From: Escherichia phage JLBYU07
Sequence record: OK272485.1
Length of the DNA stretch: 50,290 nt
Direction: 5' to 3' (one strand)
Made by a program: the position numbers and the translations under genes. The notes beneath the pieces are model-generated. The model saw only the letters and a program-made list of their open reading frames with translations, ran no database searches and had not been told where the DNA came from. Below are positions 15,660 through 46,708 of the stretch, piece by piece. The first letter of the stretch is position 1. Each line of letters begins with the position of its first letter.

Positions 15660-15687
15660 TTGACACGCACCAAATAGCTTTTATAAT
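15660..15687 (+). promoter_or_regulatory. near-consensus sigma70 promoter (TTGACA-N16-TATAAT)
   Basis: TTGACA at 15660-15665, TATAAT at 15682-15687; about 30 nt upstream of GGAGG RBS of gene 15719. Confidence 0.6.
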
Positions 15688-15718
15688 GCGCCAACAGTCA
15701 ACAACTGGAGGAAAGGAA

Positions 15719-16183
15719 ATGGAACAGAAGACCACTAAGGACTATTGCGATTGGCTTCGCGAGCTTGGTCGCCGCCTGGCTAGTGGCGATATTGAAGAGT
15801 ATAAAATGTCACTAATTGACCTGGCCGGAATGTTAAGCGGTGACGACTGCTACAAGATCACGCGCAGTTCATCCTACAGCCGGACCATTATCAACCGCGT
15901 TCCAGAAGTAAGGGCCGCAGGTCGGGTAAGCATCAAGGTAGAGGAAACGGAAGATGATAAATTTTACGTTTTCCGCATGGTCCGCGAATCGAAAAGGAAA
16001 ATCATCACGCCAGAAGAATTGCCAGCCATCAAGGCAAGGGCGATCAAAAAGTTTGCCGATCGCTTACTGGCAGCAATCCCGAATATCGTTGACCTGGAAG
16101 GGGATAAACTGGCTGGGGCTTGCGAGGGCGTAAGCCGCTACCAGGATATGATCCGCGAAATCATCAAAGAGGAAGAGCAATGA
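15719..16183 (+). CDS. hypothetical early protein
   Basis: 154 aa from ATG 15719 (GGAGG RBS); track start 15686 lies inside the -10 hexamer. Confidence 0.55.
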   Translation: MEQKTTKDYCDWLRELGRRLASGDIEEYKMSLIDLAGMLSGDDCYKITRSSSYSRTIINRVPEVRAAGRVSIKVEETEDDKFYVFRMVRESKRKIITPEELPAIKARAIKKFADRLLAAIPNIVDLEGDKLAGACEGVSRYQDMIREIIKEEEQ

Positions 16184-16452
16184 AAAAGGCATTAATCAGC
16201 GTTTTGGCGGCAATGGCATTCCTGACCGGATGCAAAGAAGATGGCGCGCATGTTGGCAATGTGCAGATGGCTAACCCTGGCGATGCCTACAGCGTAAGGG
16301 AGCTATTCACCGCTGACGGTTGCACCGTTTACCGATTCTATGACGATCGCACTGTTTACTTCACCAACTGCAAGGGCGCTACTAGCTGGGAAGTGTCGAA
16401 AAGCAATGGCAAAGGCACGAAGACAGAACATATGACCGTCGAAACAAAATAG
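16180..16452 (+). CDS. lipoprotein (candidate receptor-blocking superinfection-exclusion protein)
   Basis: 90 aa from ATG 16180; signal peptide plus lipobox LTGC; stop TAG in conserved box. Confidence 0.55.
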   Translation: MKKALISVLAAMAFLTGCKEDGAHVGNVQMANPGDAYSVRELFTADGCTVYRFYDDRTVYFTNCKGATSWEVSKSNGKGTKTEHMTVETK

Positions 16453-39650: not shown

Positions 39651-42600
39651 ATGGCTAAATATATGATAAGCGGCAGTAAGGGCGGAAGCAAAAAGCCATA
39701 CGTGCCAAAAGAGATGGAAGATAACCTGATCTCGATAAACAAGATTAAAGTTTTGCTGGCTGTATCTGATGGCGAGTGCGATCCAGATTTCACGTTGCGT
39801 GATCTTTATCTTGATGATGTTCCTGTTATTGCCAGCGATGGCACTGTTAACTATGAGGGTGTAACGGCTGAATATAGGCCAGGCACACAGACGCAAGATT
39901 ACATCCAAGGGTTTACTGACACATCAAGCGAGGTGACAGTTTCGCGAGATATTACAACAGACAATCCCTATATTATCTCTGTGACAAACAAAAATCTTTC
40001 TGCAATCAGAATCAAGATTCTGATGCCAGTTGGCATGAAGCAGGAGGATAACGGCGATCTTGTTGGCGTAAGGGTTCAATATGCCGTAGATATGGCTGTT
40101 GATGGCGGTTCTTATAACGAGGTTATGAGAGATGTAATTGACGGCAAGACGAGATCAGGATATGACCGCAGCAGAAGGATTGATCTTCCTAAGTTTGAGG
40201 AGCGCGTTTTAATCAGAGTCAAGCGACTGACTCCAGACAGCACACCTTCAAAGGTGACTGATAAAATCAAACTGCAAAGTTACGCTGAGGTTGTGGATGC
40301 AAAATTCCGTTATCCTCTGACTGGACTTGTATTCGTAGAATTTGACAGCGAATTGTTTCCTACGCAAATCCCTAACATTTCTATAAAAAAGAAATGGAAG
40401 ATTATTAATGTTCCAAGCAACTATGATCCAATATCAAGAAAATATCACGGGTCATGGGATGGGACTTTTAAAAAAGCGTGGTCAAATAATCCTGCTTGGG
40501 TTCTTTATGATCTGGTAACGAATCAGCGTTATGGGCTTGACCAGCGAGAGTTAGGAATACAGATCGACAAGTGGAGCTTATACGAGGCTGGCGTTTACTG
40601 TGATCAGAAAGTTCCAGACGGTAAGGGCGGTACAGAGCCTCGCTACCTATGCGATGTAGTTATCCAGAATCAGGTTGAGGCTTATCAGCTAATCCGTGAC
40701 ATTTGCTCAATCTTTCGCGGAATGAGCTTTTGGAATGGTGAGAGTTTATCAATCGTGATTGATAAGCCGCGCGATCCATCATACGTGTTTACTAATGAAA
40801 ACGTCATCAACGGTGATTTTCAGTACACAACCGCAAGCGAAAAAAGCATGTACACGCAGTGTAACGTGACGTTTGACGACGAACAAAACATGTATCAGCA
40901 GGACGTAGAGGGGGTTTTTGATACTGAGGCTGCATTACGATTTGGATACAATCCAACAAGCATTACAGCGATCGGGTGCACACGCAGGAGCGAAGCGAAT
41001 CGTCGCGGTAGGTGGGTTTTGAAAACAAACCTTAGAAGCACTACTGTAAACTTTGCTACCGGACTAGAGGGGATGATTCCATCAATAGGTGATGTGATTG
41101 CTATCGCTGATAATTTTCAGAGCAGCAACCTAACGTTAAACCTATCGGGCCGAGTGATGGAAGTTTCAGGATTGCAGGTTTTCGTTCCGTTTAAGGTTGA
41201 TGCTCGTCCTGGTGATTTTATTATCATCAACAAGCCGGACGGCAAGCCAGTTAAGCGCACGATCTCAAAGGTTAGCGCAGACGGAAAAACCATTGAGTTA
41301 AATATTGGATTTGGTTTTGATGTTAAGCCTGACACTGTTTTTGCGATTGACCGTACTGACCTTGCGTTGCAGCAATACGTTGTGACAACTATCAGCAAGG
41401 GTGATGACGAAAACGAGTTTACCTATTCAATCACGGCTGTAGAGTACGATCCGAACAAATACGACGAGATTGATTATGGCGTAAACATTGATGACAGACC
41501 AACTTCAATTGTTCAGCCTGACGTGATGGTAGCGCCGGAGAACGTGCAGATCTCATCTTATTCTCGCGTCGTGCAGGGCGTTAGCGTTGAGACTATGGTT
41601 GTTTCATGGGATAAGGTTCCTTACGCATCTCTTTATGAAATGCAGTGGCGAAAAGGTGATGGCAACTGGCTGAATACGCCGCAGACAGCTAACAAAGAGA
41701 TAGAGGTAGAAGGAATTTATTCAGGGAACTATCAAGTAAGGGTTAGATCTGTTTCTGCAAGCGGTAACACCTCCCCGTGGTCAAAGATTGCAACCGCCAC
41801 CCTGACAGGTAAAGTTGGCGAGCCAGGAGCGCCGATTAATCTTACAGCTTCTGATAATGAAGTTTTTGGCATTCGTGTCAAATGGGGTATGCCGGAAGGA
41901 TCAGGCGATACGGCTTACATTGAGCTTCACCAATCTCCAGACGGAACGGTTGAAAACTCAAGCCTGCTTACGCTGATTCCATATCCTCAATATGAGTATT
42001 GGCATAGCACGTTACCAGCGGGTCAAGTTGTATGGTATAGAATCCGTAGCGTTGACAGGATCGGCAACGTTTCCGGCTGGACTGACTTTGTTCGTGGCAT
42101 GGCGTCAGATGATGTTGAATCTGTTTTAGGCGACATTCTGGACAAGATTTTTGATACCGAAGCGGGTCAAGAAATCAAAGAGAACGCCATAGACAGTGCC
42201 AACAAAATCAAAGACCAAGCGCAATCAATCATCCAGAACGCATTAGCAAACGATGCTGATGTGAAGTGGACGCGAGTACAAAACGGAAAGCGTAAGGCTG
42301 AATATGGTCATGCTCTTGAGCTTATCGCCAACGAAACTGAGGCGCGCGTAACTCAAATCGAAGAGTTAAGGGCGTCAATTGATGAAGATATAGTTTCAAG
42401 TATCAAAACCGTTCAGGAAGCGATTGCCAACGAATCAGAGACGCGAGCTACTCAAGTTCAGCAGCTTGATTCTAAATTTACGAAGGAAATAGACGGCGTA
42501 AAACGAGATACGGCTGCAAGTATTGGTGAGGTAAGGCAAACCATTACCAATGAATCAGAAGCGCGCGCTCAGGCCGTTCAGCAGCTTGACGCTAAGTTCA

Positions 42601-43229
42601 CGAAAGAGATAAACGACCTTGACGGAGTTATCAAAACAGAAGTCGAGGCTAACATCTCAGAAGTGAAACAGGCGATCGCCAATGAGACAGAGGCAAGGGT
42701 TCAGGCTGACCAGGCTTTAACAGCTAAATTCGGAGACGTTGAATCAGCACTAGCAGAAAAACTTGATTCGTGGGCTAACGTTGATTCGGTTGGCGCTAAG
42801 TACGCTATGAAATTGGGCCTTACTTACAATGGGCAGAAGTACAGCGCAGGAATGGTAATGCAGCTATCGCAATCGTCGCAGGGGTTGATCTCACAAATCC
42901 TTTTCGATGCTAACCGATTTGCAATTATGACCAGTTCGTCAGGTGGCGTTTACACATTGCCGTTTGTAGTAGAAAATAACCAGGTTTTTATCAACAGTTT
43001 GTTGGTGAAAAACGGGTCCATTACTAACGCAATGATTGGCAACGTTATTCAGTCAAATAACTTTGTTCAGAATCAGCAAGGATGGAGGCTTGATAAAAAT
43101 GGTAACTTTGAGAACTACGGAACTAGAGCGGGAGAAGGAGCTACAAAATTCACTAACGAAGGCTTAAAGGTGAAAGATGCAAATGGACGATTGAGAGTTG
43201 AGATAGGGAGAATAACCGGAAGTTGGTAA
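39651..43229 (+). CDS. tail tip host-specificity protein (lambda J-like central fibre)
   Basis: 1192 aa from ATG 39651; size and position after I; four ~35-aa tandem repeats IANE[ST]E[AT]R...Q[QE]L near C-terminus. Confidence 0.85.
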   Translation: MAKYMISGSKGGSKKPYVPKEMEDNLISINKIKVLLAVSDGECDPDFTLRDLYLDDVPVIASDGTVNYEGVTAEYRPGTQTQDYIQGFTDTSSEVTVSRDITTDNPYIISVTNKNLSAIRIKILMPVGMKQEDNGDLVGVRVQYAVDMAVDGGSYNEVMRDVIDGKTRSGYDRSRRIDLPKFEERVLIRVKRLTPDSTPSKVTDKIKLQSYAEVVDAKFRYPLTGLVFVEFDSELFPTQIPNISIKKKWKIINVPSNYDPISRKYHGSWDGTFKKAWSNNPAWVLYDLVTNQRYGLDQRELGIQIDKWSLYEAGVYCDQKVPDGKGGTEPRYLCDVVIQNQVEAYQLIRDICSIFRGMSFWNGESLSIVIDKPRDPSYVFTNENVINGDFQYTTASEKSMYTQCNVTFDDEQNMYQQDVEGVFDTEAALRFGYNPTSITAIGCTRRSEANRRGRWVLKTNLRSTTVNFATGLEGMIPSIGDVIAIADNFQSSNLTLNLSGRVMEVSGLQVFVPFKVDARPGDFIIINKPDGKPVKRTISKVSADGKTIELNIGFGFDVKPDTVFAIDRTDLALQQYVVTTISKGDDENEFTYSITAVEYDPNKYDEIDYGVNIDDRPTSIVQPDVMVAPENVQISSYSRVVQGVSVETMVVSWDKVPYASLYEMQWRKGDGNWLNTPQTANKEIEVEGIYSGNYQVRVRSVSASGNTSPWSKIATATLTGKVGEPGAPINLTASDNEVFGIRVKWGMPEGSGDTAYIELHQSPDGTVENSSLLTLIPYPQYEYWHSTLPAGQVVWYRIRSVDRIGNVSGWTDFVRGMASDDVESVLGDILDKIFDTEAGQEIKENAIDSANKIKDQAQSIIQNALANDADVKWTRVQNGKRKAEYGHALELIANETEARVTQIEELRASIDEDIVSSIKTVQEAIANESETRATQVQQLDSKFTKEIDGVKRDTAASIGEVRQTITNESEARAQAVQQLDAKFTKEINDLDGVIKTEVEANISEVKQAIANETEARVQADQALTAKFGDVESALAEKLDSWANVDSVGAKYAMKLGLTYNGQKYSAGMVMQLSQSSQGLISQILFDANRFAIMTSSSGGVYTLPFVVENNQVFINSLLVKNGSITNAMIGNVIQSNNFVQNQQGWRLDKNGNFENYGTRAGEGATKFTNEGLKVKDANGRLRVEIGRITGSW
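42324..42780 (+). repeat. four tandem ~105-bp coding repeats in J C-terminal region
   Basis: repeated GCCAA[CT]GA[AG]... units encoding IANETEARVTQ / IANESETRATQ / ITNESEARAQA / IANETEARVQA. Confidence 0.7.
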
Positions 43230-43235
43230 AAAAAA

Positions 43236-43253
43236 GGGGGCATAGCCCCCTTT
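43236..43253. terminator. bidirectional rho-independent terminator
   Basis: hairpin GGGGGCATAGCCCCC with A8 upstream and T-run downstream, between convergent J and minus-strand operon. Confidence 0.7.
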
Positions 43254-43257
43254 AATT

Positions 43258-43872
43258 TTAATCATAGTGTGATGAATTTATAACCAAAACAGATGAAGCC
43301 GTGTAAATACCAACAGGACCAGAAGTTTGTGCAACCTGCCTAGATAAAGAATATACCCCGTTGCCATACGCGGCAGCTTGAGACTCAAATATCATGAATC
43401 CACCTAAAGACGGATTACGCACAGAGTTTAAAGCTGTTAGTGATGGCATGATGGCGCAAGGGTATCCCAAGTTAACGTCAAAAGTGATCCCGCTTACAGA
43501 TACAAGTTTTGCATCTAAAGGCTTCATCTTTCCATGATAAACCATCTCACCATTAGCATTATAAAAAGCTATTCCGTGACTACCAGGAGGAGTAACAATA
43601 TTGCTAAAAGCATAAACAAATACCTCACCTTGATTGTCGGACTTTTCTATCTTTATTGCGTGCTTACCACCATTATTAAATTGAGTAAATGCTATGTATG
43701 ATTTTGATGTTAACCTTACAAAAAAGAAGCACGGTCTATTTATTGGTATAGAAGTATTAAAAACGGTTCCTGTTTTTGCTGATATTTTACCTTTATCTAT
43801 AAGGTTAACAGGAGTGAAATCTGGACTTAACCACAATGATCCGTCTGGTTTTTTTATGCTCATCCCGTACAT
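43258..43872 (-). CDS. hypothetical protein (lipoprotein operon)
   Basis: 204 aa from ATG 43872 (GGGGG RBS), 1 nt after stop of upstream gene. Confidence 0.5.
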   Translation of the reverse strand: MYGMSIKKPDGSLWLSPDFTPVNLIDKGKISAKTGTVFNTSIPINRPCFFFVRLTSKSYIAFTQFNNGGKHAIKIEKSDNQGEVFVYAFSNIVTPPGSHGIAFYNANGEMVYHGKMKPLDAKLVSVSGITFDVNLGYPCAIMPSLTALNSVRNPSLGGFMIFESQAAAYGNGVYSLSRQVAQTSGPVGIYTASSVLVINSSHYD

Positions 43873-43874
43873 TA

Positions 43875-44153
43875 TTACCCCCAAAAAGTATATATATATC
43901 TTGAGTCAGATCCAGAAAGTCCGCTCCATGTAACGGTATCACCACTTACACCTAAACTTGGAGCGCCTGGATCGCCTCCGCGCCACGAACTCATTCCAAC
44001 ATATATTGCTTTCAACGACTTACCTGGCGGCCTGTTTGAGTAGGTCTTACTGCCAGATGATTGAGTAAATTTATCCAAGAAAAAAACTGGAGTTAAAAGG
44101 CCAGTAACATTTCTACCTTGCTCATCATATATTGCATACCCATATTCAGCCAT
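43875..44153 (-). CDS. hypothetical protein (lipoprotein operon)
   Basis: 92 aa; overlaps end of lipoprotein gene. Confidence 0.5.
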   Translation of the reverse strand: MAEYGYAIYDEQGRNVTGLLTPVFFLDKFTQSSGSKTYSNRPPGKSLKAIYVGMSSWRGGDPGAPSLGVSGDTVTWSGLSGSDSRYIYTFWG

Positions 44154-44421
44154 TTTTGCACCTCAAATCAATGAATTTTCTTTCATCTTGCCAACGGTTG
44201 ATAAATTTAACTTCTTTATTGTCAACGCTCAACCTGTATTGCTTTTGGCTGAATCTGTTTTCGCGGACCGCATTAATTTTAACTTCATGGAATCCGTTAA
44301 CAGGGAATGTTTTAACGTTAAATTTTGCCGTGCAATCGATCTCCTTGAAGTTGCCAGTAGGCGAAGAAGAACATCCGGTCAGAGCGGCTACGGTGGCTAT
44401 AACTGCGATTAATTTTTTCAT
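44146..44421 (-). CDS. lipoprotein (candidate Cor/Llp-like superinfection-exclusion protein)
   Basis: 91 aa from ATG 44421 (AGGAG RBS); signal peptide MKKLIAVIATVAALTGC with lipobox. Confidence 0.55.
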   Translation of the reverse strand: MKKLIAVIATVAALTGCSSSPTGNFKEIDCTAKFNVKTFPVNGFHEVKINAVRENRFSQKQYRLSVDNKEVKFINRWQDERKFIDLRCKNG

Positions 44422-44476
44422 CTTCAATACTCCTTAGTTGTTGTTGACTGTAACTATACACGATCCGGCAAGCCGA

Positions 44477-44495
44477 GTTTAGCAAAAAGTGCTAC
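44477..44495 (-). promoter_or_regulatory. conserved intergenic box copy (minus orientation, variant)
   Basis: GTTTAGCAAAAAGTGCTAC about 55 nt upstream of lipoprotein gene start. Confidence 0.5.
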
Positions 44496-44864
44496 TTGTT
44501 ATTTTTTGTTTTCCGGTGTTATCTGATTTAAGACGGCGTAAATTTAGCGCAAATTTTAGCCAACATAAGAACAATAAATAATCAATAAAATAGGTATATA
44601 CATATAAAATCAATAGTTTATTTATTTATGTATGTGTATTTGTTTTTTCTTGTTATCTGTGTTTCTTGTGGTTTTGGTTGTTTGTGGTGATTTTTCTTTC
44701 TGAGTATCTGTATGTGCCATCATTCATGTGTATGTATATAATCCGGCGTATCTGAGAGAACAAGGGAACAAGAAAAATAACATATATTAATCATTAACTT
44801 ACGCGTCAAATTTGTTTTATTGCCATCTTAGAACGTTTAGAAAACAGAAAAAACAAAACAACTA

Positions 44865-44892
44865 TTGACTAAATCAACCAAATGGCTACAAT
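44865..44892 (+). promoter_or_regulatory. near-consensus sigma70 promoter (TTGACT-N16-TACAAT)
   Basis: TTGACT 44865-44870, TACAAT 44887-44892; spacer ACCAAATGGC resembles that of promoter at 15660. Confidence 0.55.
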
Positions 44893-44922
44893 GCACACAC
44901 AAAGCAACGAGGAGCATTAAAG

Positions 44923-45978
44923 ATGAGTGATTTTAACGCCTACACTAGCGAAGAAATGAGCAACGAGCTTTATCATGATCCTAACGCATGGACGGCTGAA
45001 TATGTCAGCGGTTCCAGCCTGGCGGAGATTTACAGCACTTGCCCGGCGTACTGGAAGTACAAGCCTCGCCAGGAAACCAAAGCACTTGTTTTCGGTACGC
45101 AGTCGCATACCAATTTTGAAAGCAAGGAGTTATTCGAAAAAACATATCGCCGCGCACCGTCGCAGGATGATTTTAAAGATCTGATCACAAGTCAAACGGC
45201 GTTGGCCTCAAAGCTGAAATCTTTTGGCCTGAAAGGTACAACGGGTAAGCAATACCCCGAATTGCTGGAAATGCTGTACAAGTGCGGTGAGGATCTCAAT
45301 GTATGGTGGCTTATCGAAATGATGGCAGAATGCCAGGCCGCAGCGGACGGCGTGCAGTTAATCGACGCGAAAGATTATGACGCCTGTGTAGCGATGCGGC
45401 GCGTACTTGAGGCAATACCTGAGCATAATGCTTGCATGAATAGCCCAACCGCGCAGCGTGAAATGTCAATATTCGGGATCATCAATGGCGTAAAAGTTAA
45501 AGTGCGCCTTGATCACGTTGACGTAAACAAGGATGTAAAGGCCACAATCATTAACGGTTACGACGAAAAAGGCCGACCGATTTATGAAGAAGTCATCTAT
45601 CCAGAAGCTGTGATTATCACTGACTATAAAACAACGGTTAGCGCAAATCCGGTTGACTTCCAGCGCCTGGCTTACAATCACGGCTATTATCTCAAAATGG
45701 CTTTGCAGCATGATTTATTTAAAAAGGCGTATCCAGACGAGGAAAGGCCAGTAATTGTGAGATTGCTTGCTCAAGAGAAGAAAGAGCCTTACTTGCCGCT
45801 CGCATTCCGCATGAACATTGAGCAATTGAAGATCGGTCGCATCCAGTACATGAGCGTGATCAACAAGTTCAACGTTTGCCAACAGTTAGATGAATGGCCT
45901 TCGTATGCAAACGGGCAACCAGAAATTGATCTTGATACTCCTGATTGGGTACGCGCTCAATTCAGGCAGTATCTATGA
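44923..45978 (+). CDS. PD-(D/E)XK recombination exonuclease (RecE/exonuclease VIII-like)
   Basis: 351 aa; GAGGAG RBS; nuclease motifs VRLDHVD and ITDYKTT; upstream of Erf and SSB. Confidence 0.6.
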   Translation: MSDFNAYTSEEMSNELYHDPNAWTAEYVSGSSLAEIYSTCPAYWKYKPRQETKALVFGTQSHTNFESKELFEKTYRRAPSQDDFKDLITSQTALASKLKSFGLKGTTGKQYPELLEMLYKCGEDLNVWWLIEMMAECQAAADGVQLIDAKDYDACVAMRRVLEAIPEHNACMNSPTAQREMSIFGIINGVKVKVRLDHVDVNKDVKATIINGYDEKGRPIYEEVIYPEAVIITDYKTTVSANPVDFQRLAYNHGYYLKMALQHDLFKKAYPDEERPVIVRLLAQEKKEPYLPLAFRMNIEQLKIGRIQYMSVINKFNVCQQLDEWPSYANGQPEIDLDTPDWVRAQFRQYL

Positions 45979-46039
45979 CAAACCAAATAAATAGCTAAAC
46001 TTTTATAATGGTTGGTGATATAATTCGCCAACCAGATAA

Positions 46040-46708
<669 letters not shown>

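What the first reader, a model, noticed from the sequence alone, without database searches (positions are those of the whole stretch)
43258..44421. Leftward three-gene operon headed by a second lipoprotein, immediately after the J tip gene
Seen in sequence: lipoprotein (44146-44421, lipobox LTGC) followed by two tightly coupled genes of 92 and 204 aa, sitting between J and the recombination module and transcribed from control region B. Inference: Cor-like lipoproteins usually sit next to tail genes in T1-like phages, so this is the better Cor candidate. The two downstream proteins have no recognisable motifs and may be accessory receptor-interaction or exclusion factors.
Basis: partly seen in the sequence, partly recalled or inferred. 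Interest (0 to 1): 0.45.

Follow-up and report, generated by a model that had tools for sequence, protein, structure and literature searches.

The report
BtuB-type receptor-binding and exclusion cassette
The three genes after the tail-tip gene J are the phage's swappable host-recognition cassette: two virion proteins that most likely bind the vitamin B12 transporter BtuB, and a small lipoprotein that most likely blocks that receptor in infected cells. This kind of cassette is already described for T1-like phages.

Summary
Three translationally coupled minus-strand genes lie between J and the recombination genes: a lipoprotein (44146-44421), a 92-aa gene (43875-44153) and a 204-aa gene (43258-43872). 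They end at a bidirectional terminator.

The window is a Warwickvirus; its length matches JLBYU07. The locus is the known 'RBP locus downstream of gpJ' of small siphoviruses, BtuB type:
- It is 86/92/91% identical in protein to phage FritzSarasin and 63/73/55% to KarlJaspers. Both depend on BtuB.
- PeterMerian, of the same genus, has a T1-type cassette and uses FhuA.

The lipoprotein is Cor-like in position, signal peptide and cysteine pattern. It fails NCBI's Cor cut-off, and its mature part shows only marginal similarity.

Verdict: a real, ordinary member of a known kind. Small new points are the fold link between 'unrelated' RBP families, the inverted operon and the recombination joint inside the signal peptide.

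The parts
43092..43229 (+). Last 45 codons and stop of the central tail fibre gene J (whole gene 39651-43229). This is the proposed docking tip: ...TNEGLKVKDANGRLRVEIGRITGSW.
   Evidence: The same C-terminal motif (xVxDxxGxLRVxIGxΦ) is found in J of phages with BtuB-type and FhuA-type cassettes, and in the 933W tail fibre protein that precedes its small/large gene pair. Oekolampad (LptD type) has a different J tip. In Dhillonvirus the last ~55 codons of J are exchanged together with the cassette. The docking role is inferred.
43233..43253 (.). Bidirectional intrinsic terminator hairpin that ends both the J transcript and the leftward operon.
   Evidence: 9-bp stem with 6 GC pairs, followed on the minus strand by TTTTTTT.
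43258..43872 (-). 204-aa virion protein, the most likely receptor-binding subunit (BtuB type); phrog_425, homologue of T1 gp31.
   Evidence: - Family: phrog_425, 2.5e-50.
- Identity: 86% to FritzSarasin and 63% to KarlJaspers, both BtuB-dependent.
- Virion: the 22.0-kDa protein _0084 in vB_EcoS-95 virions matches it (203/204 identical, computed 22.03 kDa).
- No membrane segment.
43875..44153 (-). 92-aa virion protein, partner of the 204-aa protein (adaptor or second subunit); phrog_557, homologue of T1 gp32.
   Evidence: - Family: phrog_557, 6.6e-21.
- Virion: the 10.0-kDa protein _0085 in vB_EcoS-95 virions (3 peptides, 55% coverage) matches it (91/92 identical, computed 9.97 kDa; the lipoprotein would be 10.44 kDa).
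- It always precedes the large protein: T1, ES18, 933W, Zar3M, Bas06.
- Its N-terminal 50 residues align in register with those of the 204-aa family (hhalign E 0.0036).
44146..44421 (-). 91-aa outer-membrane lipoprotein, the candidate superinfection-exclusion protein. Signal peptide and lipobox 44371-44421; mature part 44149-44373.
   Evidence: - Lipobox LTG|C with Ser at +2.
- C17, C30 and C88 are invariant in the family.
- Cor models: NCBIfam 18.6 bits, below the cut-off of 31. The PHROG Cor hit (5.9e-8) is lost without the signal peptide.
- Mature-domain hhalign against Cor: E 0.013, end to end, with both Cys aligned.
- It holds the same operon position as the proven exclusion lipoprotein of the LptD cassette.
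- Not detected in virions.
44452..44492 (-). Conserved promoter-like region of the operon: extended -10 TGTATAGT (44460-44453) and an invariant upstream block GCACTTTTTGCTAAAC (44492-44477).
   Evidence: Both blocks are invariant in five Tempevirinae with either BtuB- or FhuA-type cassettes, while the bases between them vary. TGTATAGT occurs once in the window, which is not above chance on its own. The consensus scan found no minus-strand sigma-70 site here. Promoter function is inferred.
43241..44397 (.). The exchangeable module relative to the closest FhuA-type relative. It runs from 12 nt after the J stop to codon 8 of the lipoprotein signal peptide.
   Evidence: blastn of the window against vB_Eco-B1.2: homology over 41300-43240 (92%) and 44398-46400 (96%), with nothing in between.

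Best explanation
This is the host-recognition cassette of a T1-like (Warwickvirus) phage, in its BtuB-specific version.

Shown:
- The three genes form one coupled minus-strand operon that ends at a terminator shared with J.
- The 204-aa and 92-aa proteins carry no export signals.
- Both proteins are present in virions of a 99%-identical phage.
- The 204-aa protein is predicted with high confidence to have the two-beta-sandwich fold of the Oekolampad receptor-binding protein.
- This allele of the cassette occurs in phages proven to need BtuB. A FhuA-dependent sister phage has a different allele at the same place.

Inferred:
- The two proteins dock on the C-terminal tip of the J trimer through their conserved N-terminal hairpin segment (M-x-YG-x-x-I-x-x-x-[DN]G...TP).
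- The 204-aa protein contacts the extracellular face of BtuB and triggers irreversible adsorption and DNA ejection.
- The 92-aa protein is an adaptor or second subunit.
- The lipoprotein is exported, lipidated at Cys17 and sorted to the inner leaflet of the outer membrane (Ser at +2).
- Like T5 Llp on FhuA and Rtp45 on LptD, it binds the periplasmic side of BtuB, so the receptor no longer accepts the phage's own receptor-binding protein. This protects infected cells from superinfection and protects progeny from being lost on cell debris.
- All three genes are read from the conserved cor-type promoter, so receptor binder and receptor blocker are made together.
For: Identity and position
- Megablast: 100% to JLBYU26, 99% to vB_EcoS-95 and 88% to FritzSarasin over the cassette. 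J lies immediately upstream.

Receptor association
- FritzSarasin (Bas04) and KarlJaspers (Bas06) use BtuB; PeterMerian (Bas05) uses FhuA (BASEL paper PMC8594841, supplementary table).
- Bas04 and Bas06 carry the same three-gene arrangement. Bas05 and vB_Eco-B1.2 carry a T1-type arrangement between the same flanks.
- The isolators report that JLBYU07 and its Warwickvirus siblings are not FhuA-dependent (PMC10373560).
- Published work states that alleles of this locus match receptor specificity, and defines a BtuB-associated RBP family.

Virion proteins
- vB_EcoS-95 virion mass spectrometry lists 22.0- and 10.0-kDa proteins next to J.
- Computed masses are 22.03 and 9.97 kDa, against 10.44 kDa for the lipoprotein. 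Identity to the window proteins is 203/204 and 91/92.

Fold
- AF2 pLDDT 89.8, pTM 0.84.

Same operon design as the proven system
- Oekolampad has J, then on the opposite strand the exclusion lipoprotein followed by the RBP. Cryo-EM evidence exists for both functions.

Homology to the T1 cassette
- T1 gp31, 933W p65 and the window 204-aa protein all match phrog_425. T1 gp32, the 933W small protein and the window 92-aa protein all match phrog_557.

Docking
- The J tip motif is shared by all phages with small/large pairs, including the 933W tail fibre.
- The N-terminus is the most conserved part of the 204-aa family yet has low model confidence.

Lipoprotein
- Lipobox and invariant Cys framework.
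- Promoter and signal peptide shared with true cor genes.
- Weak end-to-end profile match to mature Cor.
Against: - No experiment on this phage shows BtuB dependence.
- No direct binding data exist for any BtuB-type protein of this family. The published support is genetic association plus AlphaFold3 models.
- Which of the two virion proteins touches BtuB is not shown.
- The 204-aa protein has no detectable sequence similarity to the Oekolampad RBP, so the link is by fold only.
- The mass-spectrometry support for the 204-aa protein is two peptides.
- The lipoprotein fails the curated Cor threshold, and its mature part has no significant family match.
- Its predicted fold is a generic SH3/Tudor-like barrel, with Llp only at rank 35.
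- No consensus sigma-70 promoter was found on the minus strand.
Confidence: 0.78

Rival explanations
1. One reading: a Cor-type exclusion operon. The lipoprotein is Cor, and the two downstream proteins are membrane or outer-membrane accessory factors that help to exclude other phages, as their database names suggest ('outer membrane protein', 'membrane associated protein', PHROG category moron/host takeover).
For: - PHROG names and categories.
- A 2026 paper on phage KanT1 suggests that the T1 homologues may take part in exclusion.
- The genes are co-transcribed with a lipoprotein rather than with J.
Against: - No signal peptide or transmembrane segment: maximum 19-residue hydropathy is 1.23 and 0.59.
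- Both proteins were found in purified virions.
- The fold is that of a proven RBP.
- In T1, ES18, PeterMerian and 933W the pair lies on the tail-gene strand directly behind J or the tail fibre gene, and overlaps the J stop in ES18.
- 933W has the pair but no homologous lipoprotein.
Confidence: 0.05
2. The cassette is an RBP plus exclusion module, but the 92-aa protein is the receptor-contacting subunit. The 204-aa protein is then the adaptor to J, or both form one composite binding surface.
For: - Both are virion proteins.
- Both vary between alleles: 92-aa protein 53-92% identity, 204-aa protein 47-86%.
- Both share the N-terminal segment.
- The LptD-type cassette manages with one 321-aa protein. 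That length is close to 92 + 204, so the two may together equal one RBP.
Against: - The 204-aa protein alone matches the ordered, receptor-bound body of the Oekolampad RBP over 149 residues.
- It is the more variable of the two between BtuB alleles.
- The 92-aa protein was not modelled here.
Confidence: 0.15
3. The cassette recognises a receptor other than BtuB in this phage, for example another TonB-dependent transporter, because the allele differs by 14% from the nearest tested one.
For: - The 204-aa protein is 86% identical to Bas04, not 100%.
- Homologues at 46% identity occur in Stx phages whose receptor is not established here.
- The isolators list the receptor as unknown.
Against: - Alleles as distant as 63% (Bas06) still use BtuB.
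- Phages with the 54-57% allele of Dhillonvirus are also reported as BtuB-dependent. PTXU06 is reported so; its lipoprotein homologue is 53% identical to the window's, and its relative Zar3M was measured at 57% (large protein) and 54% (lipoprotein).
- The published family definition is >30% identity.
Confidence: 0.1

Closest known systems
BtuB-type 'bona fide RBP locus' downstream of gpJ in small siphoviruses (FritzSarasin/Bas04, KarlJaspers/Bas06, Dhillonvirus PTXU06/Zar3M; Maffei et al. 2021, PMC8594841; preprint 10.64898/2026.04.02.716166)
   Same: - Same position, the same three genes in the same order and orientation, and the same terminator-side and promoter-side neighbours.
- Protein identity of 86/92/91% to Bas04 (large, small, lipoprotein).
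   Different: - Nothing of kind; it is another allele.
- This phage's receptor has not been tested.
- The published work treats one protein as the RBP and the others as 'accessory'. It does not report that the small protein is a virion component or that the RBP shares the LptD-RBP fold.
T1 / N15 / HK022 / phi80 / ES18 FhuA-type cassette (T1 gp32, gp31 and Cor gp30)
   Same: - Small and large proteins belong to the same PHROG families (557 and 425).
- Same small-then-large order and the same J tip motif.
- A lipoprotein with the same signal peptide and Cys framework sits on the minus strand.
   Different: - In T1-type phages the pair is co-directional with J and only cor is leftward. Here the pair is inverted and fused behind the lipoprotein into one operon.
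- Identity is only 23-25%.
- The receptor is FhuA rather than BtuB.
- The lipoprotein's mature domain is different.
LptD-type cassette of Oekolampad/Rtp (RBP bas18_0025, PDB 9RPT; exclusion lipoprotein bas18_0026/Rtp45)
   Same: - Same operon design: lipoprotein first, RBP last, convergent with J.
- In Dhillonvirus the lipoprotein signal peptide is identical between LptD-type and BtuB-type cassettes.
   Different: - One 321-aa RBP instead of 92 + 204 aa.
- No sequence similarity, and a different PHROG (1265).
- A different J tip.
- The receptor is not a TonB-dependent transporter.
T5 pb5 (oad) and Llp, and the BF23/DT57C BtuB equivalents
   Same: Same logic: a tail-tip RBP for a TonB-dependent transporter, paired with an adjacent small lipoprotein that blocks the same receptor from the periplasm.
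   Different: - Unrelated RBP (pb5 about 640 aa) at a different genomic position.
- No sequence match of the lipoprotein to T5-like phages.

Membership tests
BtuB-type RBP/exclusion cassette of small siphoviruses | Located directly downstream of the gpJ homologue, in the hypervariable receptor-specificity locus | tested here: met
   The J stop is at 43229 and the cassette spans 43258-44421. Sister phages have different alleles between identical flanks.
BtuB-type RBP/exclusion cassette of small siphoviruses | Putative RBP more than 30% identical over its full length to those of phages with proven BtuB dependence (criterion of the 2026 preprint) | tested here: met
   86% to Bas04 and 63% to Bas06, both full length. 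Receptors come from the BASEL supplementary table.
BtuB-type RBP/exclusion cassette of small siphoviruses | Infection depends on BtuB | not testable with these tools
   Only indirect: the isolators found the phage not to be FhuA-dependent and list its receptor as unknown.
Cor exclusion lipoprotein (NCBIfam NF047972, phrog_1119) | Score above the curated family cut-off | tested here: not met
   18.6 bits against a cut-off of 31; T1 Cor scores 55.8. The PHROG hit (5.9e-8) vanishes when the signal peptide is removed.
Cor exclusion lipoprotein (NCBIfam NF047972, phrog_1119) | Small lipoprotein with a lipobox, plus a Cys shortly after the lipid Cys (CTA) and a Cys near the C-terminus | tested here: met
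   C17, C30 (DCTA) and C88 are invariant. T1 and Bas05 Cor show the same pattern.
Cor exclusion lipoprotein (NCBIfam NF047972, phrog_1119) | Homology of the mature domain | tested here: inconclusive
   hhalign of mature-only alignments gives E 0.013 and probability 3%, but the match is end to end with both Cys aligned.
Cor exclusion lipoprotein (NCBIfam NF047972, phrog_1119) | Excludes FhuA-dependent phages | not testable with these tools
   Predicted not to, because the cassette goes with BtuB-dependent phages.
T5 Llp-type exclusion lipoprotein | Llp fold | tested here: inconclusive
T1 gp32/gp31 pair (phrog_557 / phrog_425) | Profile match of both proteins, with the small gene directly before the large gene | tested here: met
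   6.6e-21 and 2.5e-50. T1 and 933W proteins match the same profiles. Gene order is seen.
T1 gp32/gp31 pair (phrog_557 / phrog_425) | Co-directional with, and directly behind, J or the tail fibre gene | tested here: not met
   Here the pair is on the opposite strand, behind the lipoprotein gene. Bas04, Bas06 and Zar3M are the same.
LptD-binding RBP of Oekolampad/Rtp (PDB 9RPT, phrog_1265) | Same three-dimensional fold | tested here: met
LptD-binding RBP of Oekolampad/Rtp (PDB 9RPT, phrog_1265) | Sequence-family membership | tested here: not met
   BLASTP is not significant, the PHROGs differ, and the PDB sequence search found nothing.

The most novel reading that the evidence does not exclude
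The receptor-binding proteins of small siphoviruses are described as four 'unrelated' families. At least three of them (BtuB, FhuA and LptD types) may derive from one ancestral two-beta-sandwich tail-tip protein. That protein would dock through a conserved N-terminal hairpin onto a conserved C-terminal hairpin of the central fibre.

The same small-plus-large pair and the same docking motif occur behind the tail fibre gene of short-tailed Stx phages such as 933W. Those phages would then also recognise an outer-membrane protein through this pair.

The cassette moves as a unit whose promoter-side recombination joint lies inside the lipoprotein signal peptide.
Probability: 0.4. Interest if true: 0.5.

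Novelty: already known. Interest (0 to 1): 0.25.

Why it matters
For this phage, the practical result is a receptor prediction. Its isolators list the receptor as unknown, and the cassette says BtuB.

More generally, the locus is the part of a T1-like phage that one would swap to retarget it. The boundaries found here are just after the J stop and codon 8 of the lipoprotein signal peptide. The J tip is also shared with FhuA-type cassettes. Together these say where such a swap can be cut.

[quoted passage not shown] The proteins are virion tail-tip components.

Tried and rejected
- Pfam gave nothing for the two downstream proteins and only a sub-threshold lipid-attachment match for the lipoprotein.
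- NCBIfam gave nothing for the two downstream proteins, here or for T1.
- PDB sequence searches of all three proteins found nothing meaningful.
- The PHROG 'Cor' hit of the lipoprotein looked convincing. It was rejected as evidence for the mature domain because it disappears without the signal peptide. The signal peptide is shared because the recombination joint lies inside it.
- A second homologue search with a profile of the 204-aa family did not reach the T1-type proteins. It only added relatives of 40% identity or more.
- Pairwise BLASTP was marginal or not significant: 204-aa protein vs T1 gp31 (E 3e-4), 92-aa protein vs gp32 (not significant), and 92-aa vs 204-aa protein (not significant). 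Family-level evidence was needed.
- The idea that the 92-aa protein is a single-domain paralogue of the 204-aa protein has only weak support. The evidence is hhalign E 0.0036 over the first 50 residues and ~95-aa phage proteins matching one domain of the model in BFVD.
- The consensus promoter scan found no minus-strand promoter upstream of the operon. The promoter proposal rests on conservation only.
- A u-spanin identity for the other lipoprotein (16180-16452) was considered and dropped, because it has no C-terminal membrane segment.
- JLBYU07 itself (OK272485) is not in the phage collection. The identity of the window rests on genome length and near-identity to JLBYU26.

Full report
**What is there**

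- A 91-aa lipoprotein runs from the ATG at 44421, with signal peptide MKKLIAVIATVAALTG|C and AAGGAG 8 nt upstream.
- A 92-aa gene has its ATG overlapping the lipoprotein stop (ATGGCTGA).
- A 204-aa gene has its ATG two bases after the stop of the 92-aa gene.
- A 9-bp GC-rich hairpin at 43233-43253, followed by a T-run on the minus strand, closes the operon and also serves J.

A lipobox scan of the whole window finds only one other lipoprotein ORF, at 16180-16452 (+). It lies among genes of unknown function.

**Which phage**

Over the cassette the window is 100% identical to Escherichia phage JLBYU26, 99% to vB_EcoS-95 and 88% to FritzSarasin. All three are Warwickvirus (Drexlerviridae, Tempevirinae). 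The window length of 50,290 bases equals the published genome length of JLBYU07. That record is not in the collection.

**The locus is a known kind of locus**

The BASEL study described 'bona fide RBP loci' directly downstream of gpJ in Drexlerviridae, Dhillonvirus and Queuovirinae. Their alleles match the terminal receptor, and they are thought to encode the receptor-binding protein with a cognate superinfection-exclusion protein. A 2026 preprint confirmed this with 255 phages. [quoted passage not shown] For the LptD type, cryo-EM showed the RBP of Oekolampad on LptDE and the lipoprotein Rtp45 on the periplasmic side of LptD.

**Which allele**

- FritzSarasin (Bas04) and KarlJaspers (Bas06) need BtuB. 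PeterMerian (Bas05, same genus as the window) needs FhuA.
- Bas04 and Bas06 have the same three genes in the same order and orientation as the window. Protein identities (large, small, lipoprotein) are 86/92/91% and 63/73/55%.
- So does the Dhillonvirus Zar3M, at 57/72/54%. Its relative PTXU06 is reported as BtuB-dependent.
- PeterMerian and vB_Eco-B1.2 have a T1-type cassette between the same flanks.
- The isolators of JLBYU07 state that it is not FhuA-dependent and that its receptor is unknown.

I therefore predict BtuB.

**The two downstream proteins are virion proteins, not exclusion factors**

- Neither has a signal peptide or a hydrophobic segment.
- Virion mass spectrometry of vB_EcoS-95 lists _0084 (22.0 kDa) and _0085 (10.0 kDa, 55% coverage) directly after J (_0083, 132.4 kDa).
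- The computed masses are 132.44 kDa for J, 22.03 kDa for the 204-aa protein and 9.97 kDa for the 92-aa protein. The lipoprotein would be 10.44 kDa.
- The window proteins differ from those of vB_EcoS-95 by one residue each.

**The 204-aa protein has the fold of a proven RBP**

**Relation to the T1 cassette**

- T1 gp32 and gp31, ES18 gp30 and gp31, and the 933W small protein and p65 fall in the same two PHROGs as the window proteins. They always occur in the order small then large.
- In T1, ES18 and PeterMerian the pair follows J on the same strand, and only cor is leftward.
- In the BtuB-type cassette the pair is inverted and sits behind the lipoprotein gene. That is the design of the LptD cassette as well.
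- The published statement that the FhuA and BtuB RBP families are unrelated holds at the 30% identity level only.

**Docking**

- All these proteins, including the Oekolampad RBP, begin with a similar segment, M-x-[YW]G-x-x-Φ-x-x-x-[DN]G.
- In the 204-aa family, residues 1-30 are the most conserved part. Residues 1-20 nevertheless have the lowest model confidence. That pattern is expected of a segment that folds onto a partner.
- The N-terminal 50 residues of the small and large families align in register (hhalign E 0.0036).
- J of phages with small/large pairs ends in ...VKDxNGxLRVxIGxITGxW. The 933W tail fibre protein ends in ...VYDQNGRLAVRIGRLR. Oekolampad's J has a different tip.
- In Dhillonvirus, the exchange between the BtuB and LptD types includes the last ~55 codons of J.

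Docking on the J tip is an inference from these patterns.

**The lipoprotein**

- The family has an invariant lipid Cys plus C30 and C88. Ser at +2 predicts outer-membrane sorting.
- It matches Cor models only weakly: NCBIfam 18.6 bits against a cut-off of 31. The PHROG hit depends on the signal peptide.
- The reason is instructive. Against the nearest FhuA-type relative, homology resumes at 44398, inside the signal peptide.
- Zar3M (BtuB type) and Oekolampad (LptD type) share an identical signal peptide, MKTLIMICAVLLSGC.
- The promoter-side recombination joint of the cassette therefore lies within the signal peptide. The mature domain travels with the RBP genes.
- Mature-domain profiles of this family and of Cor align end to end with both cysteines matched, but only at E 0.013.

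The exclusion function is thus inferred from position, co-inheritance with the RBP, and analogy with Cor, Llp and Rtp45.

**Expression**

The region upstream of the lipoprotein gene is conserved in five Tempevirinae, whatever the cassette type. It has invariant blocks GCACTTTTTGCTAAAC (44492-44477) and ATCGTGTATAGTT (44464-44452; extended -10). The simple consensus scan did not call a promoter there. In BtuB-type phages this cor-type promoter would drive all three genes.

**Verdict**

The finding is an ordinary member of a cassette type already described in the literature. It has a clear functional reading and a testable receptor prediction.

A few modest new points came out of the analysis:
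- the fold link between RBP families;
- virion status of the small protein;
- inversion of the pair relative to T1;
- the recombination joint inside the signal peptide;
- the same pair and docking motif in 933W-type Stx phages.

Noticed in passing
window 16180-16452 (+): This is the only other lipoprotein ORF in the window: 90 aa, MKKALISVLAAMAFLTG|CKEDG..., overlapping the stop of a 165-aa ORF (15686-16183). It matches only unknown-function PHROGs (6360, 902) and has no C-terminal membrane segment, so it is not a u-spanin. Its function is unknown.
   Followed up: partly
L003 (phage 933W) 4434-6618; window 43092-43229: Short-tailed Stx phages (933W and about 100 records) carry the same small-plus-large protein pair (53% and 47% identical) directly behind a tail fibre gene. 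That gene's C-terminus (…VYDQNGRLAVRIGRLR) resembles the siphovirus J tip. No homologue of the lipoprotein was found in these phages. This suggests that these podoviruses use the pair for receptor binding.
   Followed up: partly
window 42400-42620 (J codons ~920-1000): The coiled-coil part of J contains internal ~73-nt repeats (42423-42495 vs 42543-42615, seen as cross-matches in blastn). It is the most variable part of J between the window and FritzSarasin, including a 51-aa length difference.
   Followed up: no
window 44600-44720 (minus strand view): There is a long A/C-rich, low-complexity tract (…caaacaaccaaaaccacaagaaacacagataacaagaaaaaacaaatacacatacataaataaataa…) in the 500-nt divergent intergenic region between the lipoprotein gene and the exonuclease gene. 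Its purpose is unknown.
   Followed up: no
search results: About 18 GenBank records named 'Campylobacter phage' (MG0656xx, ~47-50 kb, unannotated) are T1-like genomes that share this region, and five of them carry this BtuB-type cassette. They look like coliphage genomes deposited under a wrong host name.
   Followed up: no
window 1-50290: The window length equals the published genome length of Escherichia phage JLBYU07 (OK272485.1, 50,290 bp). That record is absent from the searchable phage collection, and the nearest record is JLBYU26.
   Followed up: partly
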